A DNA stretch of 64,000 bases, from NCBI GenBank assembly GCA_050010515.1, contig JBEKKX010000013.1, positions 32,001 to 96,000 of the forward strand. Reading direction: 5' to 3'. Both the position numbers and the translations under genes were made by a program. Shown here in pieces: positions 35,820 through 61,567 of the stretch. The DNA is from Candidatus Bathyarchaeia archaeon (GTDB taxonomy: Archaea > Thermoproteota > Bathyarchaeia > Bathyarchaeales > Bathycorpusculaceae). Numbering within the stretch: the first letter of the stretch is position 1; each line of letters opens with the position of its first letter. The notes beneath the pieces are model-generated. The model did not search any database and had not been told where the DNA came from. It was given only the letters and a program-made list of their open reading frames with translations.

Positions 35820-35956
35820 CATAATTCATGTTTAAAGCAAAAATCTTGCTTATTTTCTGCAAATAAGCTGTTCAAACCTTGCTGTGTTTTTGCGCCTGCA
35901 GTGTTATTGGTCATACAGGTACAAAAAGGGAAAAAAGAGGTTTTGCGCGCGCTGAA

Positions 35957-41811: not shown

Positions 41812-41975
41812 CTTATCTTCTCCTAAAGTGAACAGTCTACCTTTTGAGAAAGCAATAGGTTCTTGCTTTAAAGTTTTCTCTCGAACCTTAAGAAAGCAAA
41901 AAAATATTAGAGGCATTTTGCGTTGACTTTAAAGTTGAATCGTGCAAGTCGCCTGTTTGATAGGCTGAATGCTTG

Positions 41976-42887: not shown

Positions 42888-42964
42888 TTTTCGACCTGCC
42901 GCGGGGGTGCATATTGGGCACTTTGCTTATGAAACTTTCGGCGTTGTTTGCAATATAAATTTTT

Positions 42965-44239: not shown

Positions 44240-44245
44240 TCATTA

Positions 44246-45625: not shown

Positions 45626-46487
45626 CCCTTAGCCCATCGCCGACAAGGTTTACCGCCAGAGCAAACAAGGTGATAGCCACACCTGGAACGATGACCGCCC
45701 AAGGAGCAGTCTGAACATAGCCGAGCCCCAAGCTTGTGAGATAACCAAGCTCCGGAACGCTTGCGTTCGCTATGAAACCTATGAAAGCAAGAGTGGAGAA
45801 GATAACCATTATTGAGCCTAAGTCCAAGGATATCTGAATAAACACTGGTGGCAGCGAATTTGGAAGAATATGTTTAAACATTATCTTTACCTTGCTGACC
45901 CCGGAGGCTTTGGCCGCTTCAACAAACGTAAACTCCTTAGTGCTTAGCGTCTGACTCCTCGTGTACCTCGCATACAGAGGCCACCACACTATTGCAAGGG
46001 CGAGGGACATGTTTAGCAGACTTCTGCCGAGGATAAAGCCGACGGCCAATGCAAGTATAAGATACGGTATGCTAAAGAATACGTCGGTTATCCTCATCAC
46101 GATTTCATCCATTAGGCCACCGACATAGGCCGAGATAACACCTATTAGGGAACCGAATGTCGCGCCTATTGCCACAACAAGCACTGAATAGAATAGGTCT
46201 ATTCTTATTGCCTTAATCATACTGGTGAATAGATCTATCCCTGGATACGTCGTGCCAAACAGGTGTGTCATTGAAGGCGGCGAGGGCGCTGGGTTGGTAA
46301 AGTTTGGAACAAGCGTACCTACGTTAGTGATGCCGAGGAGCTGTGGGAAGAACTGCACAATCAACGCGTCTACTACAAATATCATTGTTATGACAAGACC
46401 GACGACTGCAGTCTTATTTGAAAAAAAAACTGAAAGTGAAAGCTTAGTATTGTCCCATTTTCTCTTTTTTAACTCTGTTTCAGACAC
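45597..46487 (-). CDS. Oligopeptide ABC permease (OppC/DppC-like)
   Basis: HLFGT, MRITD.F and FVEAAKASG EAA loop. Confidence 0.93.
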   Translation of the reverse strand: MSETELKKRKWDNTKLSLSVFFSNKTAVVGLVITMIFVVDALIVQFFPQLLGITNVGTLVPNFTNPAPSPPSMTHLFGTTYPGIDLFTSMIKAIRIDLFYSVLVVAIGATFGSLIGVISAYVGGLMDEIVMRITDVFFSIPYLILALAVGFILGRSLLNMSLALAIVWWPLYARYTRSQTLSTKEFTFVEAAKASGVSKVKIMFKHILPNSLPPVFIQISLDLGSIMVIFSTLAFIGFIANASVPELGYLTSLGLGYVQTAPWAVIVPGVAITLFALAVNLVGDGLRDVIDPRRRS

Positions 46488-46498
46488 CTTTTTGCTTC

Positions 46499-47554
46499 CT
46501 AATATTTTATCCTCGGATCTATAAACGCATATACTAGGTCTACTATCAGGTTAGCAAACACAAGAATTAAACCGAAAAGCAATGTAGAGGCCATGATACC
46601 TCCGACATCGCTGACTAGAAGGGCCTGAGTAGTCCAGTATCCTATTCCTGGGTAATTAAATATGGTCTCCACCACTACAGCTCCGCCTAGAAGACCGGCC
46701 ACGGTATAGCCGAAAAGCGTAATCACAGGGAGCAATGCGTTCTTGCGCGCATGAAGATTAATCACTGTTCGTTCAGCTGTACCTTTTGACCTTGCCAACC
46801 TGATGTAATCCTGATCCAACACTTCAAGCATCGAAGACCTCAGTATCCTGATCATGCTGGCAACTATTGCAAGTGCAAGCGTAACCGAGGGCAAGATAAG
46901 GTGTAGGAATGCACTACCAGCTATGCCCCATGCGCCATGGATTATCGCGTCTATAAGAATTATGTGCGTGGGGTATGAGATTCCGTTAATGTACCACGAG
47001 ACTGCTGAAACTGAGACTGGGTTCACGACACCCGAGAATGGAAGAACTTTTAGGTAGACCCCAAGCAGGATGATCAGAACTACGCCTATAAGGTAAATGG
47101 GCATGGAGTACAGAGTGAAGGATCCGATGCGCAGTGTGTGGTCAGCGGCAGAGTCCCTGTTAACAGCTGAGTAAACGCCAAGGGGGACGCCTATCACCCA
47201 TATCAGGATTGACGCTACAACTGATATCATGATTGTGTTAGGAAGGAAGAGGGCTATGGCCGTGTTTACCTGACCGTTGAATATGGGCGTACTGGTGAAG
47301 CCCCAGTTGCCTTGCAGTATTTGGTATAACCAGTAAAAGTATTGAATATAAATTGGTTGGTTAAGGTGGAATTCGCTTGTCAGCTTTTGAATTACGATTT
47401 GCCTTGCAATCCCAGTCAGTTTGGGGCTGATATATTCAGATAATATTATGTTTGTTCCGCTTATATGGGAAAGGATGAACACTATGAAAGTAAGCCCGAT
47501 CAGTGTCGGAATTATTAATAATAACCGCCTAACGATGTATACCCAGAGGCGCAT
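46499..47554 (-). CDS. Oligopeptide ABC permease (OppB/DppB-like)
   Basis: YIVRRL, RSSMLEVL.QDY..ARSKG and VETIF.YPG.G. Confidence 0.93.
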   Translation of the reverse strand: MRLWVYIVRRLLLIIPTLIGLTFIVFILSHISGTNIILSEYISPKLTGIARQIVIQKLTSEFHLNQPIYIQYFYWLYQILQGNWGFTSTPIFNGQVNTAIALFLPNTIMISVVASILIWVIGVPLGVYSAVNRDSAADHTLRIGSFTLYSMPIYLIGVVLIILLGVYLKVLPFSGVVNPVSVSAVSWYINGISYPTHIILIDAIIHGAWGIAGSAFLHLILPSVTLALAIVASMIRILRSSMLEVLDQDYIRLARSKGTAERTVINLHARKNALLPVITLFGYTVAGLLGGAVVVETIFNYPGIGYWTTQALLVSDVGGIMASTLLFGLILVFANLIVDLVYAFIDPRIKY

Positions 47555-47615
47555 AGTTACATCAACTCAGAATAACGATGTATACCCAGAGGCGCATAGT
47601 TACATCAACTCAGAA
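47530..47615. repeat. Perfect 43-bp tandem duplication over the permease start
   Basis: TAACGATGTATACCCAGAGGCGCATAGTTACATCAACTCAGAA at 47530-47572 and 47573-47615. Confidence 0.95.
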
Positions 47616-47639
47616 AAAAGGGGGGAGCGCACAAGCCGC

Positions 47640-50234
47640 TTATCCTTTGATCCACCAATAGTAGATTGAGTCGGCTGCTCCACCGATCATCGGGTTCTCC
47701 TGAGACGATATTCCGTTATAACTTGTAATGTATGGCTTTACTATCCAGAAGGAATTGGCTTGTTGCGTATAGACGAACATGTACAGGTTTATAGCGTCCT
47801 GTTCTGATTGCTTGTAGAGTTGAGCTGCAGTTGTCGGGTTGGTTGCGGCGTTTGCCTGCTGAATCACCGTGCAAAGCTGCTGATATTGAGCCGCCTCTGC
47901 CGAATATCCAGCCGCTTTCAAGCCAGCGCTTGAGAAGCCCATTGCTGAGGGATAGATGGAGCTTTGAAGGTAAAAGGCGTTAACAAAGTCGCTGGGATAC
48001 GGATAGTCAGCTATCCAGCCTAGGAAGTAAACTGGCAGAGGATTCCCGCCAGGAACTTGATCAGCTATAATTGTTGGCCACTCTTGATATTCAACTGTCG
48101 CGCTTATGTTTGAGTCCATCTGGTGCAGAGCTGCTGCCCACATTTCCATGCCTGCGTAGTTGGTTATGTCGCCTGACACGACTACCATAGGTATGTTGAC
48201 TGATATGCCAGCTTCTCCTGACTGCTCCATAAGCTGCGTAGCGGTAGCTAGGTTATATGTAGGAACGTTCTGGAGCTGGTCCTCTGGCACATAGTATGGC
48301 AAGCCATTGATTATGGCGCCTGCATAGGGACTTCCGAAGGTTTCACCGTAAATATTGTTGCCTAATATTTCATCTAGGTAATTGGTGTAGTTGAAAGCGT
48401 AGGCGAACGCCTCTCTCACTTGAGTGTTAGCGAAGTAGTTAGCAGGTACGTTAAAGTTGCTACCGAACGTTGACTTCATTAATGATGTGTCAATGTTTAT
48501 ATTGAACGCATAGAAGAAAGCGGACAGGGATGCCACCTTATAGAGGCTGCTCTGCCCGGCTGCTACCTGATCTTTAATCTGCGGATAATCGCTTGTTGGC
48601 AATCCAGTGACGATATCAGCTGATCCGCTTGTGTACAATAGATAGGCTGTTTCAGGATCCTTGATCCACTGTATCGATATTTTATTGGTCACGGCTGGTA
48701 TGCTTGGTAATCCTGGAAAACCGGTGTTGGGAGCTAAGACTACTGATTGACCTGGGACGTAGCTCTGTATTTCGTATGGACCGGATGCGACCGGGTCGAA
48801 CTGTACCTTTGTGTTGAAATCGTTCTCGTTGGCCTGGCTCTGGTAGCTGTAGAATCCTGCTGGCGAAAAGGTTATCCCAGCACCAGCACTTTGAAGCCAA
48901 GATGCATCTAATATTCCACACCCAAGGTCAAAGGCTACTGCGGTGAAGAACAGCGTGGGACTCGTAGGCGAGACGAGGTTAAATGTAACTGTGTTGGCGC
49001 TGTTGGAATATGTGACTGCGTTCAGTATTGCGTTGTAATCAGTGGTATCGGTGGCATTCGCGACTATGGGTATTCCTGCACTTGCCCCAGGAACCACGTA
49101 TTGGGCTAGTATCCAGTCAGGTGTGCCTTGTACTCCACCAACGAATAAAAGATTCCTTATCATTGAATAATATACATCGTATGCGGTAATCGGATCGCCG
49201 TTGGAGAACTTCAAGTTATTTCTTATTGTAAATGTGTACTGCGTGTCGGCCGTGTTTATTCCGTTCCCAACCGTAGGAACCGATGCGGCTATCATTGGTA
49301 GGAACGTGGTTGTCGATGATCCGTCGTATATAAGAAGTGTCCCAATAGTGTTTAAGATTACCTCGTAGCCAACAGTTTCGTAATCTATCTGCGGATCAAA
49401 TCCGGCGGGACCTCCACCGACTACTTCAGCGACATTTATAACTCCAGGGCTTGCTATCTTGCCAGCATAAACGTAGAGCGTATATGGCTGAGAAGAAGAA
49501 CTTACTGCCACGGTACGCTCAATGGTAGTGCTGTAAGTCTGCGCGGTAGCGGTATTCTCCGTTACTAGGGTTAGGCTCACAGGATACAGCCCTGTCTGTG
49601 TGTAAGTTGCGTTAACAGGGTTTATGTTTGGATCCATCGTATTGCTGTTCGCAGTTACCGTATCATTAACTCCGTTGGCAAAGTTCCATATGTACTCGGA
49701 TATGACGATGTTTTGACCGGTTGGCGCTTCAAGGAAACCTCCACTGAAATAAACGGCTGTATTAGAAGAAACCACTGGCTCGTTTGGATTAAGGGTTGAA
49801 TTTAGCGAGATAACCGGGACTGATATCAACGGAGCATTAGCAGCGCTCACCGACGGCGCTATCTGAATAGTCTTCATGGCGTTGTTCGTTGACGAGACAA
49901 CACTACCGCCTACCGTTTCCTGCGCTGTCACTATGTACGTACCTGCGTTTTCGTATGTATACGACACTGAAGACGAGCTAGAAGTAATATCTGTGGCTGA
50001 CTGTCCATCTCCGAAGTAAATAGTGGCTTTTCCGTCTGATGCCAAATGAAGAATGGAGAAGGTAATAGCTGTTCCCTGCGTTGCCGCCAGCGTAGTGGCG
50101 GTGAGAGAAATCTGTGTGGTTGGTCTTGTTGCTATATAAGAAATCACTCCCACTCCCATTGCTACTACTAAGATAACTATTATAATAATTGCCCATATTA
50201 CTCTACTCAATGCTCTATTTGGCATATGTCTCAA
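47640..50234 (-). CDS. Family 5 ABC substrate-binding protein with N-terminal anchor and two PKD-like domains
   Basis: N-terminal TM; IYFGDG and YIWNFANG PKD-like motifs; FDP..DYE, YTFTIR..LKFSNG, SGPY and VREAFAYAF. Confidence 0.9.
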   Translation of the reverse strand: MRHMPNRALSRVIWAIIIIVILVVAMGVGVISYIATRPTTQISLTATTLAATQGTAITFSILHLASDGKATIYFGDGQSATDITSSSSSVSYTYENAGTYIVTAQETVGGSVVSSTNNAMKTIQIAPSVSAANAPLISVPVISLNSTLNPNEPVVSSNTAVYFSGGFLEAPTGQNIVISEYIWNFANGVNDTVTANSNTMDPNINPVNATYTQTGLYPVSLTLVTENTATAQTYSTTIERTVAVSSSSQPYTLYVYAGKIASPGVINVAEVVGGGPAGFDPQIDYETVGYEVILNTIGTLLIYDGSSTTTFLPMIAASVPTVGNGINTADTQYTFTIRNNLKFSNGDPITAYDVYYSMIRNLLFVGGVQGTPDWILAQYVVPGASAGIPIVANATDTTDYNAILNAVTYSNSANTVTFNLVSPTSPTLFFTAVAFDLGCGILDASWLQSAGAGITFSPAGFYSYQSQANENDFNTKVQFDPVASGPYEIQSYVPGQSVVLAPNTGFPGLPSIPAVTNKISIQWIKDPETAYLLYTSGSADIVTGLPTSDYPQIKDQVAAGQSSLYKVASLSAFFYAFNINIDTSLMKSTFGSNFNVPANYFANTQVREAFAYAFNYTNYLDEILGNNIYGETFGSPYAGAIINGLPYYVPEDQLQNVPTYNLATATQLMEQSGEAGISVNIPMVVVSGDITNYAGMEMWAAALHQMDSNISATVEYQEWPTIIADQVPGGNPLPVYFLGWIADYPYPSDFVNAFYLQSSIYPSAMGFSSAGLKAAGYSAEAAQYQQLCTVIQQANAATNPTTAAQLYKQSEQDAINLYMFVYTQQANSFWIVKPYITSYNGISSQENPMIGGAADSIYYWWIKG

Positions 50235-50445
50235 TATCTCCCCACCCCATTTCCTATTGAAAGTAATTTTAATTTAGCTCTCCATATTTGAGCTTTCAAT
50301 ATTTAACGTTTGCGATAAAATAGGCTGTCTACCTAATTTTTAACCCGTTTTTATACGATATGTCGTTCCTGTTTTACCGTTATTTTCAATGCAGTGCGTT
50401 TCTTCAGCCGAAAGTTTCGCAGGTATAGTGTAAATATTATGCACC

Positions 50446-50900
50446 ATGCCCTTCGTCAGGAAAATAAAGAAACGTTCAGGCACTATCTGGCACTGTCGAA
50501 TCAAAATGGGAAAACGGAAAACCCAGACAACGCGTAATAAAATACCTCAGAAAAGAAGGAAGGCAAAGCAGTAAGAAAAGTATCCACATCAGACCTTACG
50601 GTAACACAAGTGAGGAGACACCTCGACGTTGAAATCATAGACCCTAGCAAACGAACTCAACCTAATACAACTCCTCCCGCATCAGCCCTCATATCTTCCC
50701 AACTCCTCGAAAGACCCTCCATAAACAAAATGGAAGAATGGCTCAACCAAACCGGCATACTTCAAACCCTCGGCATAGAAGGAATAACCAACCGCCCAAC
50801 TCTACGCCGCCGTAGATCAACTGCAAGAGAGCGACTTCTCAGCCACAGAAAAAAGCATCGCGCAATTTTTCGCAGAATAGAAGCCCGACAGGGTTTTTGA
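50446..50900 (+). mobile_element. Degraded transposase N-terminal fragment, IS1634-like
   Basis: Across frameshifts reads MPFVRKIKKRSG../VESKWENGKPRQRVIKYL../QLLERPSINKMEEWL; no DDE domain remains. Confidence 0.6.
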
Positions 50901-50998
50901 ATTATTATCCTGCTCTCTTAACGTGCTCTCATCAAAAGGGTTGCAAGCAAAGCATTCACGAGCGAGAATCGTAGGGTAAACAAAATAAGCACCGGCTA

Positions 50999-51886
50999 TC
51001 AAAAAAGTTTATGCATGAACTTCCAGCTATGTCCAATTTCAAAACCGATCTTTCGCATCAATTTTACAGATGGAACGTTTGTTTCAAGAGTGAATAAACA
51101 CACAGAATCCATTCCTTTCTCAAATAGTGAATTCATTGCATGCACTGTGAGTGCGGACGCCAGATTCCTCCCCCGATACTCATGGAGCGTCGCTGCTGGA
51201 CCCAAATAACCTCTCTTTGCATTGAAGAATCTGTTATAGCCTACATCAGGTTTTGCGACAACAACTGAAACAAGTTTTCCATTACTCTCAGCAATATGAA
51301 TCCATTCTTCATCGAAAGGCGGGTTCTCTGTCTTCCACTTTTGAATGTCACCCGGCCTGATTCTTTCGTACTCAAATCCAGTGTTAACAAGTTGAACAAA
51401 CTCGTTCTCTTCCTCTGGCTTTAGGCTTCGCAGAAGTACGCCCTCAGGGATTTTAGGGATGGTTTTCAACCCTGCAAGTCTCATGTGCATATAATATAGT
51501 CCTCCATTCGGACAATACCCTCGTTGCATCCATTCTTCGATCTTTGGGCTTCCAGCGTTTACCGAGGTAAAAACCGCGCCTTTCTTTACATACTTCTCAG
51601 CTTCTTTGACAAGCATGTCCTCAACAAGTTTTGCATCTGCATTTTTGCAAACAACGAGCCATTCGATTTCTTCCCCCCAATGCCCATCATTGTACGCCGC
51701 TGACCCGATAATTCTGCCGTTGTCCTCAGCTATCAGAACCTCAAGCCTACGTTCTTGAATCCAAGAAAGAAGGTTGCCGTCACCATAGTGCATGTAGAGA
51801 AGTCTTTGTTCGTCATTTGGCTCTTTAAGCAGTTCAAAAAGGAATGGAAGATCGGATTCTTTAAAACTTCGAATCTTAGCGATCAT
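50999..51886 (-). CDS. Tandem GNAT acetyltransferase
   Basis: Two GNAT-like halves; EYRGRNLA and N..SVKLMRKIGF. Confidence 0.88.
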   Translation of the reverse strand: MIAKIRSFKESDLPFLFELLKEPNDEQRLLYMHYGDGNLLSWIQERRLEVLIAEDNGRIIGSAAYNDGHWGEEIEWLVVCKNADAKLVEDMLVKEAEKYVKKGAVFTSVNAGSPKIEEWMQRGYCPNGGLYYMHMRLAGLKTIPKIPEGVLLRSLKPEEENEFVQLVNTGFEYERIRPGDIQKWKTENPPFDEEWIHIAESNGKLVSVVVAKPDVGYNRFFNAKRGYLGPAATLHEYRGRNLASALTVHAMNSLFEKGMDSVCLFTLETNVPSVKLMRKIGFEIGHSWKFMHKLF

Positions 51887-52003
51887 GTTCTCTGATTAAA
51901 CAGCTTGAAACTAATTATTAGCTTTTATGACAGCGACACTCCGTTTATCAAAATTCAAAACTAATTTGGGTTTAAATCTCGGCGCACCAAGCTACCTATT
52001 TTT

Positions 52004-52072
52004 ATCAATCTATAACTTCAATTCATACCCGAGGGTTCAAACGCGGGCTCAAACCTATCCCCGCCCGACACA
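52004..52072 (+). repeat. tRNA-Arg 3'-end-derived repeat, copy B, with upstream extension
   Basis: ATCAATCTATAACTTCAATTCAT-ACCCGAGGGTTCAAACGCGGGCTCAAACCTATCCCCGCCCGACACA. Confidence 0.9.
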
Positions 52073-52099
52073 ACGTACTAACTTATGAGGAAATCGACC

Positions 52100-53083
52100 C
52101 TAAGGCGACGTGTCCCCTTTCACAATCGGACGACCATCCCTGTATGAACACTGAAGCCCATACTTCTTCACGCACTCTAAACAGAGAATGGGATCGCATA
52201 GGGTCGTGCTCAAGTATTTTTCGCCACCATCAGGAGCAATGGCAACTATCACGCCTTTTTCGATTTCCCTTGCTTTGGCTGCCGCAATGTGGAAAATGGC
52301 TCCTGAACTGGGGCCTACAAAAATTCCTTCCTGCAAGGTGAGAAGCCGAGAAGCTTCCTCAGCGTCCTTAGGGTTCACGTAACAGATTTCGTCGACCAAC
52401 GTTGGGTTCCAGATCGCTGGCACGTACTGGGTCTTCAGGTCCTTCAAGCCTTGAATCGCTGTGCCAGGCTCAGGCTGAATCCCAATAACCTTCACGGCGG
52501 GGTTGTGTTCCTTGAGCCGTTTCGAGACACCCATTAACGTGCCTGTGGTTCCGATGCCAGCCACGAAGTGAGTGACCTGCCCGTCGGTGTCTCGCCATAT
52601 CTCCTCACCCGTCGTTTGGTAATGTGCCATGATATTTGCTTTGTTTGCAAACTGGTTGGGCATGAAGTACTTGTCTGGGTTACGTTTGACTATTTCATGC
52701 GCTAAGTCTTCAGCTCCATCCATTCCCTTGGACCCTTCGCTGAGCAGAATCTTAGCCCCCAACGAAATTAGGATCTGGCGCCTCTCTAACGTCATGGTCT
52801 CAGGCATAACCAGCACCAAATCGTACCCCTTGGCACGGCAGACCAAAGCCAACCCGATGCCCGTGTTTCCACTTGTGGGTTCAATCACCGTTTTGCCGCC
52901 TGTCAACTGCCCCGATTTTTCAGCTTCCTCAATCATGTATTTGGCGATTCGATCCTTAACCGACCCGCCTGGGTTGCATTTCTCCAACTTGATGTACATC
53001 TGAACGTTAGGGTTAGGATTCAAGCGTCTTATCTCAACCATAGGAGTGTTGCCGATAAGTTCGAGCACATTTTTCGCATTCAT
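52100..53083 (-). CDS. PLP-dependent cysteine synthase family protein (CysK/CysM)
   Basis: IGNTP, NPGGSVKDR, EPTSGNTG, NQF and GIGTTGT; Cys-rich C-tail; start moved to ATG 53083. Confidence 0.92.
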   Translation of the reverse strand: MNAKNVLELIGNTPMVEIRRLNPNPNVQMYIKLEKCNPGGSVKDRIAKYMIEEAEKSGQLTGGKTVIEPTSGNTGIGLALVCRAKGYDLVLVMPETMTLERRQILISLGAKILLSEGSKGMDGAEDLAHEIVKRNPDKYFMPNQFANKANIMAHYQTTGEEIWRDTDGQVTHFVAGIGTTGTLMGVSKRLKEHNPAVKVIGIQPEPGTAIQGLKDLKTQYVPAIWNPTLVDEICYVNPKDAEEASRLLTLQEGIFVGPSSGAIFHIAAAKAREIEKGVIVAIAPDGGEKYLSTTLCDPILCLECVKKYGLQCSYRDGRPIVKGDTSP

Positions 53084-53198
53084 CTTTAAGCACCTAAAAG
53101 ACTGATAATAATAGTTTGCTACAGTACTATAAATTATGTGCGGACAAACTCTTCTTTCAACGGAGTACGTGAGCATCGACCTTGCTAAACTAAGGGCA

Positions 53199-53223
53199 AG
53201 GGTTCAAATCCCTCCCCGCCCGC
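53199..53223 (+). repeat. Exact 25-nt direct repeat of the tRNA-Arg 3' end (att-like)
   Basis: AGGGTTCAAATCCCTCCCCGCCCGC is identical to 33674-33698; downstream flank also similar. Confidence 0.92.
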
Positions 53224-53351
53224 TTTGCCCCTTTTGCCAATTGGAACTTGATTTTTGAATATTTAGGAAAATAAGGCTTAGAAATCGCGCGCGCTGCGCA
53301 CACAATCAAAACCAACGTTAGACTCTACATAGTCAATACACGCGTTAAAAA

Positions 53352-53699
53352 TCAGAAGAGTATTAGCAAGCCTTCTCTGCTTCCGTTGGGTTGAATCATG
53401 GCTTTCCGTTTGTTCAGAGGCTCGTCTGTTTCTATTTTTGTTCCCATTAGGGCTGGGATTGAGAATTCACGTGACACAATAGCCAGATGCGAGCCTACCC
53501 CACCAGTTTTGCAGACAATCCCTGCAAGCTTGGAAAGAATCGGTCCAAGAGTGGTCGTTCCTGCGTCTTCGACTATAACGATTTTCCCGTCAGCTCCTTC
53601 CTTCCAGAGATTAATCACATCCTGAATCGACGTGACCACCCGAAGCTCACCCTCGGCCGAAACATTCAGCGTAATCATTCCACTACCTATAACCTTCAT
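53352..53699 (-). CDS. Stand-alone PEP-utilising phospho-His swivel domain protein
   Basis: GIVCKTGGVGSHLAIVSREFSIPAL motif; 115 aa. Confidence 0.88.
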   Translation of the reverse strand: MKVIGSGMITLNVSAEGELRVVTSIQDVINLWKEGADGKIVIVEDAGTTTLGPILSKLAGIVCKTGGVGSHLAIVSREFSIPALMGTKIETDEPLNKRKAMIQPNGSREGLLILF

Positions 53700-53832
53700 G
53701 ACCTAGCCTTCAATTCAACATGGGTAGGCTACTTATAGCCAAAGTTGGATATTAGATTTACTTGAACAGCGCTGATGCCAAATCTTATTTACATCAAACC
53801 CGAATATCAGGTTCAGCGCAGAGGCAAAAGAT

Positions 53833-55011
53833 ATGAAGATTGCAGAAATCAACGAACTTATCACTCACCTGAGCAAGGTCTTCTCCAACATCGTTCTCGA
53901 AAGGAGCCTACTCGAGTCCAAATTGTTTCCCGTTAACGCTTACATAAGTCTCGGATTCTACCAGACCTACCACGAACTTTACGCTGTCATGAAACAAGTA
54001 TGGGACACGATCACCCCCGAAGAATTGGCTAAAAAAAGCAGAAGCCTACTCTCGCCCATACAAGCTCTCTCAATTTCCTACCTTTGGCTTTACTATTCGC
54101 TCGCTAGAATGGGCACAATCTACAACAAATGCGGAGGCGACCCCAGCAAAGAACATCTGGAAAAAAGAGAACAATGGAAATGGATGCTTGAAAAATGGTA
54201 CAGCCTGGCGACACACTACTTTGCCTCTGGCAAACCTACCGTGGCAGCTTCTAACAGGAAAATCATCGGTCTAAACGACGACTCAATCGCTTGGGTCAAA
54301 GACCACATACAACCAGTGACTCCTGAACAAACGAAGAAGGTAAGACGAATCATAGGCTCGGTTGACCTTTACTCTTTCATAGACGAATGCGAAGCAAGAG
54401 CCAAAATCGTGAACCACGGTCCCTATCCGCTTGGAAACGGAGAAAACCTCGTGCTCACGGAATACACAAACCTCTATGATGGACACGACAGATTGTGGCT
54501 TCCGTGGTCAGCAACCGAAGCTAAATTCCCTTCTTCAACCTTAGGTGTCGCCATGACACTCAAAGATGCAAAAACCACCTTCAACGACATCGGCACCATG
54601 ACGGTGGACCCCGGCGACTACTCCAAACTTGTAAAGGGCATCGCAGCATACAAAAAAGGCGGAGACCAAATAGTCTCAGTCGGACTGGATGAGCTATCCT
54701 CATACGCCGAAGCTGCAGACAACGCCCAAGCCGAACTCTACATGAAATTCGCCCAAATGGGCAGGTCGCAACTGCTCATCTCGGGCGCCACCGCTTACTG
54801 GAAGGGCTTCGCAAGGTACACAGACTCTATAGGAATCACAGAAAAAGTCTCATGGAACCTCTCTAAAACAGTTCTTGACGAATACCTGCCCATATTCATG
54901 AAAGCCAACGAGGACCCAGCCTTCTCAAGAATCAAAAGAAAAATCATAAAAATGAAAACCCTTCCATTTCTAAAAGAAAAAGACCCAATAATGTACCTCA
55001 TGCCCGAGTAA
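53833..55011 (+). CDS. Uncharacterised 392-aa soluble protein
   Basis: Long ORF divergent from the His-domain gene; no family recognised. Confidence 0.8.
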   Translation: MKIAEINELITHLSKVFSNIVLERSLLESKLFPVNAYISLGFYQTYHELYAVMKQVWDTITPEELAKKSRSLLSPIQALSISYLWLYYSLARMGTIYNKCGGDPSKEHLEKREQWKWMLEKWYSLATHYFASGKPTVAASNRKIIGLNDDSIAWVKDHIQPVTPEQTKKVRRIIGSVDLYSFIDECEARAKIVNHGPYPLGNGENLVLTEYTNLYDGHDRLWLPWSATEAKFPSSTLGVAMTLKDAKTTFNDIGTMTVDPGDYSKLVKGIAAYKKGGDQIVSVGLDELSSYAEAADNAQAELYMKFAQMGRSQLLISGATAYWKGFARYTDSIGITEKVSWNLSKTVLDEYLPIFMKANEDPAFSRIKRKIIKMKTLPFLKEKDPIMYLMPE

Positions 55012-55028
55012 CAAAAGCATCAGATAGG

Positions 55029-55934
55029 ATGATGAAAATGTCTAATTCGATCAAAGAAACCGACGACTACTTTCACACCGCAGAAAAGGAACTAGACTGG
55101 CGAGAAAGCTACTACTTCAACTTTGCAGATCCCGAAAACAAAACAGCTGGATTCACCACCATAGGGATTCTGCCCAACCAGAAGAAAGGAGAATTCATCC
55201 TAGCTCTATTTCACGAAGACAAACAAATGGTCTACTACAAGGAACAAACACCCATAAATGATCAATCATTGGGCCTTCTCTCAGATAGAACCCTGACCTA
55301 CAAGCTTGTCGAACCCATGAAGAAATGGGAAATCAATCTCGCCAGCGAAAACCTCAACGTGCACTTCCAGTGGAAAGCCCGATTTCCGCCGTTTGATTTT
55401 GGAAAGGGAAGCGGAACCTCTTGGAAAGCGCACTTTGAACAGTCAGGCACGGTCGAGGGAGAAGCAACACTCCCCGACGGAAGAAAAATCCGAATCAGAG
55501 GCTACGGTCAGCGCGACAAGAGCTGGGGGACTCGAGACTGGCACATAGAAAATTGGTTCGCATTCCACGCGCAGTTTCAAACATATGCCATCGGCTTACG
55601 AAAAGACACCGTAAACGGCTCTCCTCACATCTCAGGAGGGTTGTCCTCCGCGAAAAAACAGACGGCAGCCTCTCAAATAGACCTGCAAATAAACTACGAG
55701 AAAGACGACACGAAAACCCCAACCGGAGCCTCGACGACAATACACTACGCAGACGGAAAAGTCGACACGCTCGTTTCCAAACTGATTTCACCCAAGAGCT
55801 TCGTCAAGTTCTCAAGAAGCTTCCCAAAAGGAACCACAGAACTCTTCGAAGGAATGGCAATACACGAGTGTACCACTACGGGAGAAAAAGGAACCGGACT
55901 CATCGAATTCCTCTTCACGCACCCAAAGCCTTAG
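55029..55934 (+). CDS. AttH/CrtC/tocopherol-cyclase-like beta-rich protein (DUF7064/7065-like)
   Basis: WRESYYFNF, HFEQSG.V.G and GQRDKSWGTRDW motifs. Confidence 0.7.
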   Translation: MMKMSNSIKETDDYFHTAEKELDWRESYYFNFADPENKTAGFTTIGILPNQKKGEFILALFHEDKQMVYYKEQTPINDQSLGLLSDRTLTYKLVEPMKKWEINLASENLNVHFQWKARFPPFDFGKGSGTSWKAHFEQSGTVEGEATLPDGRKIRIRGYGQRDKSWGTRDWHIENWFAFHAQFQTYAIGLRKDTVNGSPHISGGLSSAKKQTAASQIDLQINYEKDDTKTPTGASTTIHYADGKVDTLVSKLISPKSFVKFSRSFPKGTTELFEGMAIHECTTTGEKGTGLIEFLFTHPKP

Positions 55935-56027
55935 TCCAGCAAGTAAACGTTGAACTTGTGCAAAGACATCGGCAAAACTAAAGCAATTTCAAATCGAAGA
56001 AGCCGAAATGTTCTGTTATATGTGCCC

Positions 56028-56291
56028 TCATGATACGGTTATGGCTTTCTGGGGACATGCTGTCACGCATTTTCCGCAGTGGGTGCACAGATCCAGCCAG
56101 ACCGCCGTTATTTGCCAGAATTGCGGATCATTGCGGTTTGCCTCTTTGGCTCCGAGGGTTTCGTGGCGAAGGAAAATCGCCGGATCACAAACCTTGAGGC
56201 AAACACTGCATTCTCGAGGGTCAATGCCACCAGTCGCATTTCCACATTTCGAATAATCAATTCGAATTCTCGTTTTCTTCATCATCAACAA
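56028..56291 (-). CDS. Small 4Fe-4S ferredoxin-like protein
   Basis: C...CSVCLKVC and CTHCGKCVTACP. Confidence 0.85.
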   Translation of the reverse strand: MLMMKKTRIRIDYSKCGNATGGIDPRECSVCLKVCDPAIFLRHETLGAKEANRNDPQFWQITAVWLDLCTHCGKCVTACPQKAITVS

Positions 56292-56300
56292 CTTGTCTCG

Positions 56301-57170
56301 CTAGTACATGTTGGCAATTCCCGGAACGCTTTCCCTGGGAATCAGCGTAATCGCGCCGAACTTACAACGATCTCTGCAAAGTCCGCAGCCGAAACATTTG
56401 TTTTGGTCAATTACTGTTCTACTCAACGTAGGCGAATACCTTAGTGCCCCAAATTGGCAATAGGAAACGCACGCCCTGCAACCTTGACAAAGGTCGGGGT
56501 TGACGTCGGCAACGTACTCTGCCTTATAGACGGCACCCAAGCCAAAGTCGGTTCGAAGCCTAAGACCTCCACACTGAGGGACCTCGCAAGAACAAATCGC
56601 GTTAACATAAGGGACAGGCTGGAACCAGACCGTTGCGATTCTTCCTTTCTTGTTCTGCTCCTCCAAAGCCGCAACAGCCTCTTCCCTACCCAACCTGAAC
56701 TTGGTTTTTTCAGGAATAAACCGGGGCAACTTCTCGATCACACCCGACAGGCAACCGAAGTTGATGCAGCACACATCCTTAACTCCCCTCTGCATCATCC
56801 TGCACATACAGTAGTTCTGAATTATAGGTTCAGCCGCCAAGTTCATCATGATAAGCTTGGCTTCTTCAATAGGAATTACCTGCCCAAAATGCCCGTCCGC
56901 TCTAACCGGATTCCGATTCTTGCTCTCAGAATGAATCATGCTTTCAGCCTTCCAACGCACTACGCGTCCGATAATTGGCATTTTAAGCTTGTAGCCCATC
57001 CCTATAGAAGAGAGACCCATGATCTTACGGATGTAGACTGTCTCAAAGTTTCTCCACTGCTCCTCAAGATAAGCTTCAAGATTCTGACTATCCGCAAGTT
57101 CATTGGAGTAGTTCTTAGCGTTAAGATACCACTTTCCACCTGCACCGTGTTTCATGCACCACTTACACAT
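56301..57170 (-). CDS. Fe-S protein with C-terminal 2x[4Fe-4S] ferredoxin domain
   Basis: MCKWC..HG, CMCR, ICSC....C, CQGCRACVSYC and CFGCGLCRDRC. Confidence 0.88.
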   Translation of the reverse strand: MCKWCMKHGAGGKWYLNAKNYSNELADSQNLEAYLEEQWRNFETVYIRKIMGLSSIGMGYKLKMPIIGRVVRWKAESMIHSESKNRNPVRADGHFGQVIPIEEAKLIMMNLAAEPIIQNYCMCRMMQRGVKDVCCINFGCLSGVIEKLPRFIPEKTKFRLGREEAVAALEEQNKKGRIATVWFQPVPYVNAICSCEVPQCGGLRLRTDFGLGAVYKAEYVADVNPDLCQGCRACVSYCQFGALRYSPTLSRTVIDQNKCFGCGLCRDRCKFGAITLIPRESVPGIANMY

Positions 57171-57300
57171 TGGAAAATCACTTAAGCCGCAAAGTCAATA
57201 GCTTAAGTTACACTCGTCTAGGTATTTAAAAATTAGGTAACGCCAAGACAGAGCGAAAACGAACGGAGGAAAAAGAACGAGAACAAAACTTAAGCCCAAC

Positions 57301-58275
57301 TTGAATTCTGAACCACTAAGTCACCAGCCCGGAGCCGACCGAGAATGGAACGAATCATACTACTTCGTTTTCTACTCAAAAGAACAAGAATTCGGCGGCA
57401 TTACAAGACTGGGTTTCAAACCGAACAAACAAGAGGGTATGACCTTTTTTCTTCTCTTCCTGCCCGACGGAACAGTTGCCATGCACCAGACCACAGAAAA
57501 AATAGGAAACTCCAGCTACCCCAAAGTACCAAGCGTTAACGGCATGCTACACCAAAGGAACGACAACGGCACATGGAACTACAATTTCAGCGGCAACATG
57601 ATGCTCCTTAAAAACCCACAAGACCTCCTTAAGATACGAGAAAAACCATCCTTGATATCTGGAATTCAGAAGGCCACAATGGACCTCACTTTCACACCCA
57701 TAAACAAAGTCTACGAATACAGCAGCCACATGACAACGGAGAGTCGCGAACTCGGAAAAAAAGCTGGCGACGCTCACTGGGAACAGATCGCCAAAGTGAA
57801 AGGTAAAGTTGTCCTGGGCAACCGATCATTCAACGTAATTAACGTTCTTGGACAGAGGGACCACACTCACGGCGTACGCGACTGGACTGGAATCGGAAGC
57901 TGGCTCTACTACGTTATCTGGTTTTCCGAACGACTGGCCGTAAACCCTGCAGCCCTAATTTCTGACGAAGGAAAAGTATCCACAGGAGGGTTCATTTTCA
58001 AAAACGGAAGGAACATTCCAATTACGAAAATTCGTGTCCTGGACCAGCAGTTCAGCGACGACATCTTCCCCGTCAACTCAAAACTGGAGCTTGTCGATGA
58101 AGACGGCCACACTCATGTACTGAAAGGAAAAGCAGGACCAGCAGTTCCGATCCCCTTCAGCGACGAAAAAGGACGAACTTCCATTCTTACACAGTCTTTC
58201 GGAACTTTCGAAATGGACGGTCTGTCTGGTGGTTACGGAACATTTGAAACATTACGGGCAAACCGCGCATCCTAG
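57301..58275 (+). CDS. Second AttH/CrtC-like protein, paralogous to 55029-55934
   Basis: WNESYYFVF, HWEQ..KV.G and GQRDHTHGVRDW motifs. Confidence 0.7.
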   Translation: MNSEPLSHQPGADREWNESYYFVFYSKEQEFGGITRLGFKPNKQEGMTFFLLFLPDGTVAMHQTTEKIGNSSYPKVPSVNGMLHQRNDNGTWNYNFSGNMMLLKNPQDLLKIREKPSLISGIQKATMDLTFTPINKVYEYSSHMTTESRELGKKAGDAHWEQIAKVKGKVVLGNRSFNVINVLGQRDHTHGVRDWTGIGSWLYYVIWFSERLAVNPAALISDEGKVSTGGFIFKNGRNIPITKIRVLDQQFSDDIFPVNSKLELVDEDGHTHVLKGKAGPAVPIPFSDEKGRTSILTQSFGTFEMDGLSGGYGTFETLRANRAS

Positions 58276-58370
58276 ACCGTGTATTTGCGCGATTTTCACT
58301 TAGGCTTAAATACGAAGCGCCTCAAACGTAATACCCTACCCGTGTTGCCAAGCAAAGAGGAGAAACAACA

Positions 58371-60101
58371 ATGGACAGCTCTAACAGCTCTGAGAAAGAA
58401 GTTATATGGACAAGAGGCTATTCAGACGACTACTGGAATGACCCTGTTTCCCCCCTGTTTTTCGAGCTGCTCGGGGACCAACTAACCCAAATTGTTAACA
58501 CTGAACTCAATGGAATTATGGGATATTCCCGCCTGGGCTCGGGAGAAACTGATAAGCTCCTGAGGCTGTATCATGGTCACGCATACTTCAACCTTGAAGT
58601 TCTCAAACGGAAGGTTGAGTACGAGATCCCTCCATTCGTTCGCAACGACGACATCCTAAACTACTTCATGGAAGGCAGTGGACCATACGGCAAAAAAACC
58701 ATGAAAAATCAGCCTTTCAAACTGAACAAGAGAGTTTTGGCGGAAATCCGAGTGATGCTCTATGACGGTCAAGGCTCGATAACAAAAACAAACTCGGCAT
58801 ATGAAAAATGGACCAAAGAGAAATTTGACCCATTCTGGCAAAATTTCGATTCACGAATAGCAAAAATCAACTTGGAAGGCGACCAATCGGACCTCTTAGA
58901 ACTGGCTGGAGAGCTGGATCGGTTAATGATCGGGCACTTCCGTCTCGTACGGTACGGGATCCCGGTCCACAACATCGGGATGAATCTGATAGCGCAATAC
59001 CTTCTGGGACGCTTCATAGGCCAAGAAGCAACTGAGATCTACCCGCTTTTAATATCTGGTCTCGAGCACAAAACAAGCGAAATGAACGAGCGTCTCGTCA
59101 AGCTCGCCGGTATGATACGAACTTCAACCCCTACAAAATCGCTAATCCTAGAAACACCTTCAAATCGCCTTTTCACAGTTCTAATGGCAGATAATACTCC
59201 GCAGTCAGAAGAATTTAAGCAAGAATTGAAGTCGTTCTTACGCGATTTCGGAGTCAGAGGCTTCACCAGAGAACCATATTACCCGCGCTGGCACGAAGCT
59301 CCCGAATACGTTTTCGACATCTTGAAATCATTAATCCAGGATCAAATTCCAGTAAAAAAAGAACAGAAAATTGCACGAAAGCTACAAACAAGCAGGATTG
59401 AACACAGAATAAAGAAGCGGCCGCTAGGCTGGTTCAAATGGCAACTACTCTCAGTAATTCTTGGGTTCGCAAGAAAATACATAGTATTTCGCGAGAACCA
59501 GCGATACAACCTGGACCGATGGATCACCATGAACCGCAGAATCTACATGGATATCGGAAGGAACCTGCAAAAACACGGATTCTTGGAGGACCCTTCAGAC
59601 ATATTCTTTCTCCGAAAAAACGAAATACGAACCCTGATCTCCAGAAAAGGAATCGATGAAGACCAAACCAGAATCCGCCAGGCAGTTTCAAGCAGGAAAG
59701 CCGAGTTTCTTAAGTATGAACACGTGACTCCAGCCAAGTTCCTACAGGGATCTACGGAATTCAATGATCCAGAGAGAAACACCGGCTTCATCCTGCATGG
59801 GCTTCCCGCCAGCCAAGGCAGACTAACCGGAACCGTCCGAGTCCTAAACCGCGTTGAAGAAATTGGAGACGTGCATGCTGGCGAAATACTCGTCGTTCCT
59901 CGAACTGACCCCGGATGGACTCCTGTGTTCAGCAAAATAGGAGGCTTGATCACCGAAACCGGCGGAATCTTATCGCATGGCGCCGTAGTATCCAGAGAAT
60001 ACGGAATTCCCGCCGTTACAAACATCCAAAACGCTTGCCAACTGCTCCACAACGGCCAAACCGTAACGATTGACGGTTCAAAAGGTATCATCTCCATATA
60101 G
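58371..60101 (+). CDS. PEP-synthase/rifampicin-phosphotransferase-like protein (substrate-binding plus phospho-His domains, no ATP-grasp)
   Basis: WTRGY..DYW.DPVSPL, FL.DFG.RG, P.W.E.P, TDPGWTP.F and ETGGILSHGAVVSREYGIPAV. Confidence 0.88.
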   Translation: MDSSNSSEKEVIWTRGYSDDYWNDPVSPLFFELLGDQLTQIVNTELNGIMGYSRLGSGETDKLLRLYHGHAYFNLEVLKRKVEYEIPPFVRNDDILNYFMEGSGPYGKKTMKNQPFKLNKRVLAEIRVMLYDGQGSITKTNSAYEKWTKEKFDPFWQNFDSRIAKINLEGDQSDLLELAGELDRLMIGHFRLVRYGIPVHNIGMNLIAQYLLGRFIGQEATEIYPLLISGLEHKTSEMNERLVKLAGMIRTSTPTKSLILETPSNRLFTVLMADNTPQSEEFKQELKSFLRDFGVRGFTREPYYPRWHEAPEYVFDILKSLIQDQIPVKKEQKIARKLQTSRIEHRIKKRPLGWFKWQLLSVILGFARKYIVFRENQRYNLDRWITMNRRIYMDIGRNLQKHGFLEDPSDIFFLRKNEIRTLISRKGIDEDQTRIRQAVSSRKAEFLKYEHVTPAKFLQGSTEFNDPERNTGFILHGLPASQGRLTGTVRVLNRVEEIGDVHAGEILVVPRTDPGWTPVFSKIGGLITETGGILSHGAVVSREYGIPAVTNIQNACQLLHNGQTVTIDGSKGIISI

Positions 60102-60279
60102 CAACATCCGCAAATTCTGCAACGACCGATGATTTTTTCTTTCCAATCAAATACAGCACGTTGCGCGCGCTCTACAATGTTGACTGTAAATATGGATATT
60201 TAGTCTGTTTTTGTTCTCAAGCATTTGCTAAATATACAAAAAGTCCTTCACCTTGGCTATAAGCTAGCGCATTAGGTAA

Positions 60280-60843: not shown

Positions 60844-60844
60844 A

Positions 60845-61561: not shown

Positions 61562-61567
61562 GGATGC

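What the first reader, a model, noticed from the sequence alone, without database searches (positions are those of the whole stretch)
52004..52072. Conserved 46-70 nt tRNA-derived element with doubled T-loop half
Seen: copies A, B and C share ACCCGAGGGTTCAAA-CG(A/C)GGGCTCAAA-CCTATCCCC(G/A)CCCG(C/A)CACA and differ pairwise at only two positions. The layout is an intact CGAGGGTTCAAA followed by a degenerate second copy and the acceptor 3' strand. B and C share ~25 more nt upstream. All three carry the same departures from the tRNA (GCTCAAA, CCTAT), so they descend from one derived sequence, not from independent duplications of the tRNA. A and C include CCA, which the tRNA gene does not encode. 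Inference: a propagating recombination site (attP/attC-like) or a small tRNA-derived repeat or RNA.
Basis: partly seen in the sequence, partly recalled or inferred. Interest (0 to 1): 0.7.

Follow-up and report, generated by a model that had tools for sequence, protein, structure and literature searches.

The report
Degenerate tRNA-Arg attachment-site repeat
The repeat is a mutated copy of the end of a tRNA-Arg gene that marks the right-hand border of DNA blocks inserted one after another next to that tRNA in a group of soil archaea, an ordinary kind of feature in an unusual variant form.

Summary
Copies A (35774-35817), B (52007-52070) and C (62644-62708) are real, differ pairwise at 2 of 46 positions, and a fourth, weaker copy lies on another contig.

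The 44-nt block ACC-CGAGGGTTCAAA-CGAGGGCTCA-NNN-CTATCCCCGCCCG-CCA occurs in 23 of 120 genomes of one Bathyarchaeia genus and, by an exact 21-nt core, in no other species of the genome collection searched. It nearly always lies downstream of tRNA-Arg(CCT), on the same strand.

A close relative (G138) carries the same gene blocks in a different order. The breakpoints fall exactly after ...CCCCGCCCG, so the block behaves as a recombination (att) site at the right end of inserted units.

Most units lack an integrase. Only the last 49 codons of a tyrosine integrase gene remain just after copy C.

The CCA is not a sign of RNA origin: in this genus the tRNA-Arg gene normally encodes CCA, and in this genome the first inserted unit pushed it to behind copy A.

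The doubled T-loop is a 12-nt tandem duplication in an older ACC + T-arm-to-CCA att type that still exists.

No fold or covariation supports an RNA.

Verdict: a new variant of a known kind, of moderate interest.

The parts
33623..33698 (+). tRNA-Arg(CCT), the primary integration target. The gene ends ...CCCCGCCCG (G at 33697) and runs straight into CATTTTGCTCAA, the left end of unit a. No CCA follows.
   Evidence: ARAGORN, Rfam 62.3 bits, sequence
33698..35773 (.). Unit a, 2.1 kb. It carries an ABC-2 permease (33853-34599, -) and an ABC ATPase (34596-35516, -) and no integrase. In relative G138 the same unit sits after the ordinary fragment instead of after the tRNA.
   Evidence: Pfam; BLAST and junction reading
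35774..35817 (+). Copy A of the derived att, at the right end of unit a. The CCA at 35815-35817 and what follows (CCACACATAATTC...) form the left end of unit b.
   Evidence: In G138 the same CCACACATAATTC follows an ordinary att
35815..52006 (.). Unit b, 16.2 kb. It carries an AlaX-like gene, two EamA genes, DinB, MFS, a beta-eliminating lyase, a five-gene Opp-type ABC system and a GNAT. No integrase domain was found.
   Evidence: Pfam; PF00589 six-frame search of the genome finds nothing in the window
52007..52070 (+). Copy B, the finding. The core runs 52027-52067 and is followed by ACA, not CCA. Positions 52007-52026 are upstream bases shared with copy C.
52068..53192 (.). Unit p, 1.1 kb, holding one PLP-dependent enzyme gene (52100-53176, -). 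It occupies the same place in G138. In G105 it lies at the far end of the array, next to the DEAD-helicase flank.
   Evidence: Pfam
53193..53222 (+). Ordinary, undoubled tRNA-Arg 3' fragment (att). Positions 53199-53223 are identical to 33674-33698.
53223..62643 (.). Unit d, 9.4 kb. It carries PEP-utilizer domain proteins, DUF7065/DUF7064 proteins, a ferredoxin-domain protein, thymidylate kinase and a UbiA prenyltransferase. No integrase was found.
   Evidence: Pfam
62644..62708 (+). Copy C. The core runs 62665-62705 and CCA is at 62706-62708.
62741..62887 (-). Remnant of the last 49 codons of a tyrosine integrase gene, convergent with the att. It is the fossil left arm of an older element.
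   Evidence: tblastn with the 403-aa integrase of L056: 51% identity over residues 355-403, E 1e-8. That integrase scores 70.8 bits on PF00589

Best explanation
The element is the element-borne attachment site (att) of integrative DNA units that insert at the 3' end of the tRNA-Arg(CCT) gene in one Bathyarchaeia genus.

A tyrosine integrase is the likely enzyme: a 403-415-aa family with an N-terminal zinc ribbon, whose gene sits convergent just past the att in other genomes. It would exchange strands inside the shared ...TCCCCGCCCG, just before the CCA.

The tRNA-like bases to the left of that point travel with the inserted unit as its right end. These are ACC, CGAGGGTTCAAA, CGAGGGCTCA, three variable bases and CTA. 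They do not need to rebuild a working tRNA, so this lineage could carry a 12-nt tandem duplication and a broken T-stem.

Repeated insertion at the tRNA or at older att copies pushes earlier units outward. This gives tRNA | a | A | b | B | p | fragment | d | C | integrase fossil.

Shown:
- the family exists;
- it is placed behind tRNA-Arg and on the same strand;
- unit a sits in two different array positions, with breakpoints at the att edge;
- the CCA was displaced;
- the integrase fossil is present;
- an unduplicated precursor att type exists.

Inferred:
- which integrase acts on the site;
- the exact cleavage sites;
- that integrase-free units are moved by an integrase supplied from elsewhere, rather than by homologous recombination.
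For: Family and range:
- The pattern hits 23 of 120 genus genomes with about 37 copies, and the reversed-pattern control gives 0.
- All 18 hits in the 185,579-species collection are records titled Candidatus Bathyarchaeota or Bathyarchaeia.
- Of 26 metagenome matches on 25 stretches, 21 passed my test for the att and 2 more look like it with a decayed tail.

Conservation across 35 copies:
- 25 consecutive positions are at 80% identity or more.
- Three variable positions follow.
- Then 11 positions are at 80% or more.
- The flanks are at 20-49%.

Placement:
- 24 of 37 copies lie on the same contig and strand as an ordinary tRNA-Arg 3' end, within 20 kb. One more is fused to a tRNA 5' half.
- In 28 array stretches all att copies face one way; none is on the opposite strand.

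Breakpoints:
- G138 (82-96% identical over the matched pieces) has the order tRNA | x | att | b | B | p | fragment | a | A.
- G000 has the order tRNA | a | A | b | B | p | fragment | d | C.
- The G000 tRNA and the G138 fragment are both followed by CATTTTGCTCAA.
- G000 copy A and an ordinary G138 att are both followed by CCACACATAATTC.
- Copies L022 and L026 join the derived att to the same CATTTTGCT.AA arm.

Integrase:
- The fossil lies after copy C.
- An intact, convergent integrase lies right after tRNA-Arg in G065, G136, G069, G007 and G103.
- An intact 23.9-kb element in G136 is bounded by a 42-nt repeat running from the T-loop to 20 nt past CCA.
- Metagenome contig L149 has the derived att directly followed by a gene for this integrase, 71% identical over 179 aa up to the contig end.

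Origin:
- The single-unit form ACC + CGAGGGTTCAAATCCCT...CCGCCCGCCA is present in 7 of 120 genomes.

Literature:
- Tandem integration and integrase loss in archaea are described in passages of PMC8371274.
- Arrays formed by re-use of one site are described in passages of PMC6563490.
Against: No intact cognate integrase is in this genome. The best relatives, on contigs C9 and C22, are about 30% identical, and the C9 gene lies about 2 kb from a tRNA-Asn gene.

Most units lack an integrase. Of 53 inter-att segments, 45 had none, 6 had fragments and 2 had a full gene. I chose these arrays because they had at least 2 att copies, and I used only six integrase queries. Autonomous movement is therefore excluded for most units, and movement in trans is unproven.

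Homologous recombination between repeats could give the same junctions.

The sharp left border at ACC, shared by at least five unrelated upstream flank classes, is not explained by a crossover at the right edge alone.

In G105 unit p has no att at its left junction.

In G004 a tRNA 5' half is joined to the B/C-type copy at the anticodon loop. That points to a second crossover position or a second enzyme.

No circular form or empty site was observed directly.
Confidence: 0.8

Rival explanations
1. The copies are inert scars. On this reading the derived block is a decayed tRNA fragment that was copied passively by segmental duplication and homologous recombination inside a variable region, and no recombinase recognises it any longer.
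For: There is no intact cognate integrase in G000. Of the 53 segments, 45 have no integrase. Several copies are visibly decaying: D, L009, L038 and L048.
Against: Across 35 copies, 36 of 44 positions stay at 80% identity or more, although the flanks are unrelated on both sides. The breakpoints of unit a fall on one and the same base at four junctions. The identity between the derived and ordinary forms is only 12-13 nt, which is short for homologous exchange.
Confidence: 0.12
2. The element is part of a transcribed tRNA-like RNA. In the 'class 1' copies a TATA-like TTTTTTAAGG and, about 25 nt later, GGGCGAG (the acceptor 5' strand of tRNA-Arg) lie about 75 nt upstream. Together they could make a roughly 125-nt RNA with a tRNA-like acceptor stem and a CCA end.
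For: The class 1 alignment shows the conserved upstream part. One D-arm-like hairpin changes on both sides: TAGCT/AGCTA becomes TAGCC/GGCTA in L033. RNAalifold pairs the 5' GGGCG with the 3' CGCCC.
Against: Only 2 of 23 predicted pairs covary in the class 1 alignment, and 0 of 6 in the 35-copy alignment. The folds are no better than shuffles. Rfam finds no family at these copies. ARAGORN calls no tRNA after any single deletion of 8-74 nt. Copies A and C lack the 5' part, and copy B has at most a decayed trace of it. The orientation relative to neighbouring genes is inconsistent.
Confidence: 0.05
3. The element is a piece of a split or multi-intron tRNA gene whose other exons lie elsewhere.
For: The genome has many intron-bearing tRNAs. 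In G004 a tRNA 5' half ends at position 37/38 and runs into the element.
Against: The T-stem 3' strand CCCTC is missing from the element. No tRNA body is joined to the doubled unit in any of 120 genomes. An intact tRNA-Arg(CCT) lies at the head of the array. The deletion scan was negative.
Confidence: 0.02

Closest known systems
Tandem arrays of tRNA-targeting integrated elements in archaea ('gene capture'). Sources seen: review PMC8371274 (passages) and Thaumarchaeota survey PMC6563490 (passages). She et al. 2001 was seen only as an entry in that review's reference list.
   Same: A tyrosine integrase is involved. The target is the 3' part of a tRNA gene. Direct repeats of the tRNA fragment bound the inserts. 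One site is re-used, so older inserts are pushed outward. The integrase is lost after integration.
   Different: Here the repeat is not a copy of the tRNA. It is a separate lineage with a 12-nt duplication and a broken T-stem, kept in 23 species. Most units are small (median 2.7 kb in my chosen sample) and have no integrase. One 2.1-kb unit sits in two different array positions in two relatives.
Tycheposon islands of Prochlorococcus (bioRxiv 10.1101/2020.12.28.424599, passages read)
   Same: Successive integrations occur at one tRNA, with newcomers pushing older elements into the island. Partial tRNAs and fragmented integrases are scattered through the island. The cargo consists of transport and metabolic genes.
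   Different: Those elements are bacterial, and their partial tRNAs are plain copies. No derived, duplicated att lineage is described in the passages I read.
Integron attC sites and gene cassettes, including archaeal integrons (bioRxiv 10.1101/2022.02.06.479319, search listing and abstract start only)
   Same: Arrays of integrase-free units each carry one recombination site at one end. Unit order differs between relatives.
   Different: The site has no attC-type single-strand hairpin. No integron integrase lies next to the primary site. Genes lie on both strands and units reach 16 kb. The primary site is a tRNA gene.
SNJ2-type and other 3'-end att sites of archaeal integrases (PMC8371274, passage)
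   Same: Exchange occurs at the asymmetric 3' end of the tRNA gene (the acceptor 3' strand), not in a stem-loop.
   Different: Membership of the integrase in the SNJ2 family was not tested. The att here carries a long tRNA-like left part that the short SNJ2 site lacks.
Cis-mobilizable elements and accretion-mobilization in streptococci (recalled; PMC5704250 seen in a search listing only)
   Same: Integrase-free units flanked by att sites could be moved by a related element's integrase.
   Different: Those are bacterial and linked to conjugation. Nothing of that kind is shown here.

Membership tests
att repeats of tRNA-targeting tyrosine-integrase elements | Sequence identity with the 3' part of the target tRNA gene | tested here: met
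   A 12-nt stretch (CGAGGGTTCAAA) and an 11-nt stretch (TCCCCGCCCGC) are identical to tRNA-Arg(CCT). The remainder is colinear with the tRNA.
att repeats of tRNA-targeting tyrosine-integrase elements | Direct orientation, downstream of the intact tRNA | tested here: met
   24 of 37 copies lie on the same contig and strand within 20 kb of an ordinary tRNA-Arg 3' end. No att copy is on the opposite strand in 28 arrays.
att repeats of tRNA-targeting tyrosine-integrase elements | The repeats bound DNA that is present, absent or moved between relatives, with the breakpoint at the repeat | tested here: met
   Unit a differs in position between G000 and G138, and the left end of unit b is the same behind two different att copies.
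att repeats of tRNA-targeting tyrosine-integrase elements | A cognate integrase gene next to an att | tested here: inconclusive
   Only a 49-codon fossil remains in the window. Intact genes lie next to tRNA-Arg in five other genomes and next to a derived att on metagenome contig L149.
att repeats of tRNA-targeting tyrosine-integrase elements | Recombination by that integrase | not testable with these tools
   This needs an in vitro or in vivo assay.
Integron attC | An imperfect palindrome that folds as a single-strand hairpin | tested here: not met
   DNA folds of both strands of A and B give z from -0.19 to +1.37.
Integron attC | An integron integrase beside the primary site, with promoterless cassettes all in one direction | tested here: not met
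   No PF00589 match lies in the window. Genes lie on both strands.
tRNA (Rfam RF00005) or intron-bearing tRNA | Cloverleaf recognised by the covariance model or by ARAGORN | tested here: not met
   Only 33623-33697 scores in the window. Nothing scores at the class 1 copies. ARAGORN with introns finds none at the four copies. The deletion scan gave 0 hits.
SSV-type integrase system (att inside the integrase gene) | The att lies within the integrase reading frame, so the gene is split on integration | tested here: not met
   In L056 and L062 the frame stops about 50 nt before the att.

The most novel reading that the evidence does not exclude
The tRNA-Arg(CCT) locus of this Bathyarchaeia genus may be a working gene-cassette platform. 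Small integrase-free units of 0.5-16 kb, each ending in a tRNA-derived att, would be excised, re-inserted and reshuffled by an integrase supplied in trans. The doubled 12-mer would be an extra protein-binding site that marks such non-autonomous cassettes. This would be an archaeal, tRNA-based analogue of the integron.
Probability: 0.2. Interest if true: 0.7.

Novelty: new variant of a known kind. Interest (0 to 1): 0.4.

Why it matters
Bathyarchaeia are abundant and uncultured, and their mobile DNA is little described. My literature searches listed papers on their viruses and proviruses, and none on tRNA-linked arrays.

The locus shows how transport and metabolic genes (ABC, Opp, EamA, MFS and PLP enzymes) are gathered next to one tRNA gene and reordered between close relatives.

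The derived att is a convenient marker for such units in metagenomes.

If integrase-free units really move in trans, this would be a simple cassette system in archaea that could be rebuilt in vitro from two short DNA sites and one enzyme.

Tried and rejected
RNA expression: the look-up of sequencing runs listed no RNA holder.

Viral origin: the one IMG/VR hit (L100) is a chance match inside a coding sequence, and that contig holds no tRNA. Three of the 26 metagenome matches are likewise unrelated.

'Native flank' idea: I first took the bases after copy C, shared with G004 and G105, to be the original chromosomal flank. They are in fact the end of an integrase gene.

SSV-type split integrase: rejected, because the att lies outside the frame.

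Intron or split-tRNA reading: rejected.

attC-like hairpin: rejected.

Structured RNA: not supported.

Script faults: one search had a faulty pattern for ordinary copies and was redone. In one search the ORD/DER labels overlap and are not used; only positions and segment counts are.

Unit p as a free cassette: in G105 its left junction shows no att, so I make the moved-unit claim only for unit a.

The region after copy A in G138 maps to other G000 contigs (C14, C6). I saw no tRNA-like att sequence in the stretch of C14 that I read. This is unexplained.

The search of earlier findings returned nothing for this genome.

Supplementary tables of the papers were not open. The att lists of PMC6563490 and PMC9897764 may hold comparable degenerate repeats.

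Full report
**What is there.** The window holds one tRNA by default ARAGORN and by Rfam: tRNA-Arg(CCT) at 33623-33698. Three copies of a 44-46-nt tRNA-like block lie downstream of it on the same strand.
- Copy A is at 35774-35817.
- Copy B has its core at 52027-52067, with shared upstream bases from 52007.
- Copy C has its core at 62665-62708, with shared upstream bases from 62644.

Self-BLAST gives A~B and A~C at 46 nt and 95.65% identity, and B~C at 67 nt and 92.5%. The 12-mer CGAGGGTTCAAA with up to one mismatch occurs 7 times against 0.36 expected. One of those seven is an ordinary tRNA-Arg 3' fragment at 53193-53222, of which 25 nt are identical to the tRNA. Another is the T-arm of an intron-bearing tRNA-Ser(GGA) at 28806-28917 on the minus strand, seen only when ARAGORN allows introns. 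A fourth, weaker copy of the block lies on contig C39.

**Organism and range.**
- The genome is archaeal. It has intron-bearing tRNAs, an Fe-ADH_2 family dehydrogenase that I take from memory to be the archaeal glycerol-1-phosphate dehydrogenase type, and an FKBP26-type protein.
- An exact 21-nt core of the block occurs in 18 stretches of the 185,579-species collection. All are in records titled Candidatus Bathyarchaeota or Bathyarchaeia.
- Within the genus a looser pattern hits 23 of 120 genomes with about 37 copies. The reversed-pattern control gives none.
- In 24 genomes of 11 other families of the order, a stricter 30-nt pattern found nothing.
- Metagenome contigs gave 26 matches on 25 stretches. 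Of these, 21 passed my extension test, 2 more look like the att with decayed tails, and 3 are unrelated.
- The single IMG/VR hit is a chance match inside a coding sequence.

**Anatomy of the family.** Thirty-five distinct copies align without gaps.
- The flanks are 20-49% identical.
- From ACC onward, 25 consecutive positions are at 80% identity or more: ACC CGAGGGTTCAAA CGAGGGCTCA.
- Three positions then vary (50-69%).
- Eleven positions follow at 80% or more: CTATCCCCGCC.
- The last five (CGCCA) are at 60-79%, and beyond them the flanks are unrelated again.
- About 21 of the 35 copies end in CCA.

The second unit plus tail has the same length as the tRNA's CGAGGGTTCAAATCCCTCCCCGCCCG. The block is therefore a T-arm-to-3'-end copy with 12 extra nucleotides and substitutions in the T-stem 3' strand.

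A single-unit form, ACC + CGAGGGTTCAAATCCCT...CCGCCCGCCA, exists in 7 of 120 genomes. One of those copies (L140) already reads TCCCTATCC. The doubled form is thus best read as a 12-nt tandem duplication in that older att type, followed by a few substitutions.

**The CCA.** In this genus the tRNA-Arg gene normally encodes CCA: 34 of 36 distinct ordinary 3' ends printed have it. In the window the tRNA ends ...CCCGCCCG and continues CATTTTGCTCAA. Copy A ends ...CCCGCCCG and continues CCACACATAATTC.

In relative G138 the tRNA carries CCA. There an ordinary att 3.4 kb downstream is followed by the same CCACACATAATTC, which is the left end of unit b. So in the window's genome unit a, with copy A at its right end, was inserted between ...CCCGCCCG and CCA. 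The CCA now stands behind copy A. This removes the argument for an RNA-level origin.

**Evidence that it is a recombination site.** G138 matches the window at 82-96% identity but orders the same pieces differently.
- G138: tRNA | x | att | b | B | p | fragment | a | A | other DNA.
- G000: tRNA | a | A | b | B | p | fragment | d | C.

Unit a is 2.1 kb, holds two ABC-2 transporter genes and has no integrase. Its two borders are the same in both genomes. On the left it begins CATTTTGCTCAA directly after ...CCCGC(C/T)CG of the tRNA (G000) or of the fragment (G138). On the right it ends with copy A, after which the two genomes differ.

Two copies in other genomes (L022, L026) join the derived att to the same CATTTTGCT.AA arm. 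All breakpoints fall right after the discriminator G. For a tyrosine recombinase the exchanged region must be identical in both partners, so it should lie within TCCCCGCCCG. That last step is inference.

**Position and orientation.**
- Twenty-four of 37 copies lie on the same contig and strand as an ordinary tRNA-Arg 3' end, within 20 kb. One more (G004) is fused to a tRNA 5' half. Of the other 12, 9 lie on contigs with no listed ordinary tRNA-Arg 3' end, many of them short contigs or positions near a contig end.
- Ordinary tRNA-Arg 3' ends are also multiplied. They are found in 100 of 120 genomes, with up to 7 copies per genome.
- I picked 28 stretches from 26 genomes because they held at least two att copies. 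In them every att faces the same way.
- The 53 inter-att segments have a median length of 2.7 kb (range 0.48-23.9 kb). Forty are under 5 kb.
- Two segments hold a full integrase, 6 hold fragments and 45 hold none. This was judged by tblastn with six integrase queries at E of 1e-5 or lower.
- The selection of arrays and the narrow query set limit this count.

**The enzyme.**
- Immediately after copy C, on the opposite strand, lie the last 49 codons of an integrase gene (62741-62887; 51% identity, E 1e-8).
- The full protein is 403-415 aa, scores 70.8 bits on PF00589, and has weak zinc-ribbon matches at the N-terminus.
- Its gene sits convergent just past the CCA of tRNA-Arg, or of an att copy of it, in G065, G136, G069, G007 and G103.
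- The family is in 101 of 120 genus genomes.
- G136 holds an intact 23.9-kb element bounded by a 42-nt repeat that runs from the T-loop to 20 nt past CCA. That repeat contains TCCCC(G/A)CCCG twice, 20 nt apart.
- A 1.9-kb metagenome contig (L149) shows a derived att directly followed by a gene for this integrase, 71% identical over 179 aa up to the contig end. The bases between the two TCCCCGCCCG repeats are missing there.
- In the window's genome the nearest intact relatives are about 30% identical and lie on other contigs; the C9 gene is about 2 kb from a tRNA-Asn gene. The array here may be frozen.

**Against an RNA.**
- The consensus fold of 35 copies is -2.2 kcal/mol with no covarying pair.
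- A, B and C fold no better than shuffles (z +0.36, -0.67 and -0.61), while the tRNA gives -2.0.
- DNA folds of both strands show no hairpin.
- Rfam finds nothing at the copies.
- The block lies in either orientation relative to neighbouring genes.

One flank class (class 1) deserves a note. It has at least 8 full copies in 8 genomes, with a decayed relative at copy D on C39. It carries a TATA-like run and GGGCGAG, the acceptor 5' strand of tRNA-Arg, about 75 nt upstream. One small hairpin in it changes on both sides. RNAalifold pairs the two acceptor strands, but only 2 of 23 pairs covary. No single deletion turns it into a tRNA for ARAGORN. I read it as a whole degenerate tRNA-Arg copy carried by one unit type, and I keep a transcribed tRNA-like RNA as a minor rival.

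**What does not fit neatly.**
- The left border at ACC is equally sharp in at least five unrelated flank classes. A right-edge crossover alone does not explain this. A second enzyme with a different cut site, or selection on a protein-binding site, is needed.
- In G004 a tRNA 5' half runs into the B/C-type copy at the anticodon loop, and no ordinary tRNA-Arg end was found in that 71%-complete genome.
- In G105 unit p has no att on its left.
- Other att types beginning in the D-arm, with a different integrase on the other side, share the locus. Several systems therefore overlap here.

**Comparison with what is known.**
- Tandem integration at one tRNA, loss of the integrase after integration, and use of the asymmetric 3' end of tRNA genes are described for archaea (passages of PMC8371274; PMC6563490).
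- tRNA fragments left by integration are common (passages of PMC9897764).
- The same accretion logic, with partial tRNAs and integrase fragments scattered in islands, is described for Prochlorococcus tycheposons (passages of 10.1101/2020.12.28.424599).
- What is particular here is a separate, duplicated att lineage kept across 23 species, and a small integrase-free unit found at two array positions in two relatives.
- Two literature searches listed no paper on tRNA-linked arrays in Bathyarchaeia. I read only the listings, and supplements were closed.

**Verdict.** The recombination-site reading is supported, and the RNA reading and the CCA argument are not. This is a new variant of a known kind, of moderate interest. 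The boldest reading the data allow is a tRNA-based cassette platform served in trans, to which I give about 0.2.

Noticed in passing
window 28806-28917 (-): A tRNA-Ser(GGA) with a 25-nt intron. Default ARAGORN and Rfam at gathering score both missed it. It was found only when ARAGORN allowed introns.
   Followed up: partly
window 21298-22960 and 33848-35490: The ABC-2 transporter pair of unit a has a paralogous pair about 12 kb upstream of the tRNA. Both pairs match the same transporter genes of other genomes at 64-74% identity.
   Followed up: no
L009, L010, L025, L033, L034, L042, L047, L092 (L011 lacks the GGGCGAG part; a decayed relative is G000 C39:19.3-19.9 kb): The 'class 1' flank is a conserved module of about 150 nt upstream of the att. 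It carries TTTTTTAAGG and, about 25 nt later, GGGCGAG. The copies in L011, L047 and on C39 also have a small two-helix membrane protein gene further upstream. One hairpin shows a change on both sides.
   Followed up: partly
L006 = G004:C16:11.75-11.87 kb: A tRNA-Arg 5' half, reaching the anticodon loop, is fused to the B/C-type derived copy. No ordinary tRNA-Arg 3' end was found in that 71%-complete genome.
   Followed up: partly
L063 (G033:C74): In this species the tRNA-Arg(CCT) carries an insert of about 23 nt after the anticodon loop, at the canonical intron position. The window's gene has no such insert.
   Followed up: no
window 62695-62735; L109 (G136); L149: The arm just past the att repeats TCCCCGCCCG a second time, 20 nt downstream. 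In metagenome contig L149 the bases between the two repeats are missing.
   Followed up: no
window 33700-33750, 35830-35875, 53224-53250, and many loci: The left arms of the units share a motif close to ATTT(T/C)(T/G)GCAA(A)T, 10-45 nt past the att. It may be a protein-binding site or a promoter element. I saw it by eye only.
   Followed up: no
G000 C15:44390-44412 (-): A third ordinary tRNA-Arg 3' end with CCA lies on another contig. It is followed by a left-arm-like flank, and ARAGORN does not call it a tRNA.
   Followed up: partly
G109:C6:507.9-509.8 kb (L140, L048): A second small array, with a single-unit att and a decayed derived copy, lies about 395 kb from that genome's tRNA-Arg(CCT) locus.
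   Followed up: no
L102 start (G138:C10, about 73.4 kb onward) and G000 C14:47.4-49.4 kb, C6: The DNA after copy A in G138 matches other contigs of the window's genome. I saw no tRNA-like att sequence in the stretch of C14 that I read. This could be a larger rearrangement or an assembly difference.
   Followed up: partly
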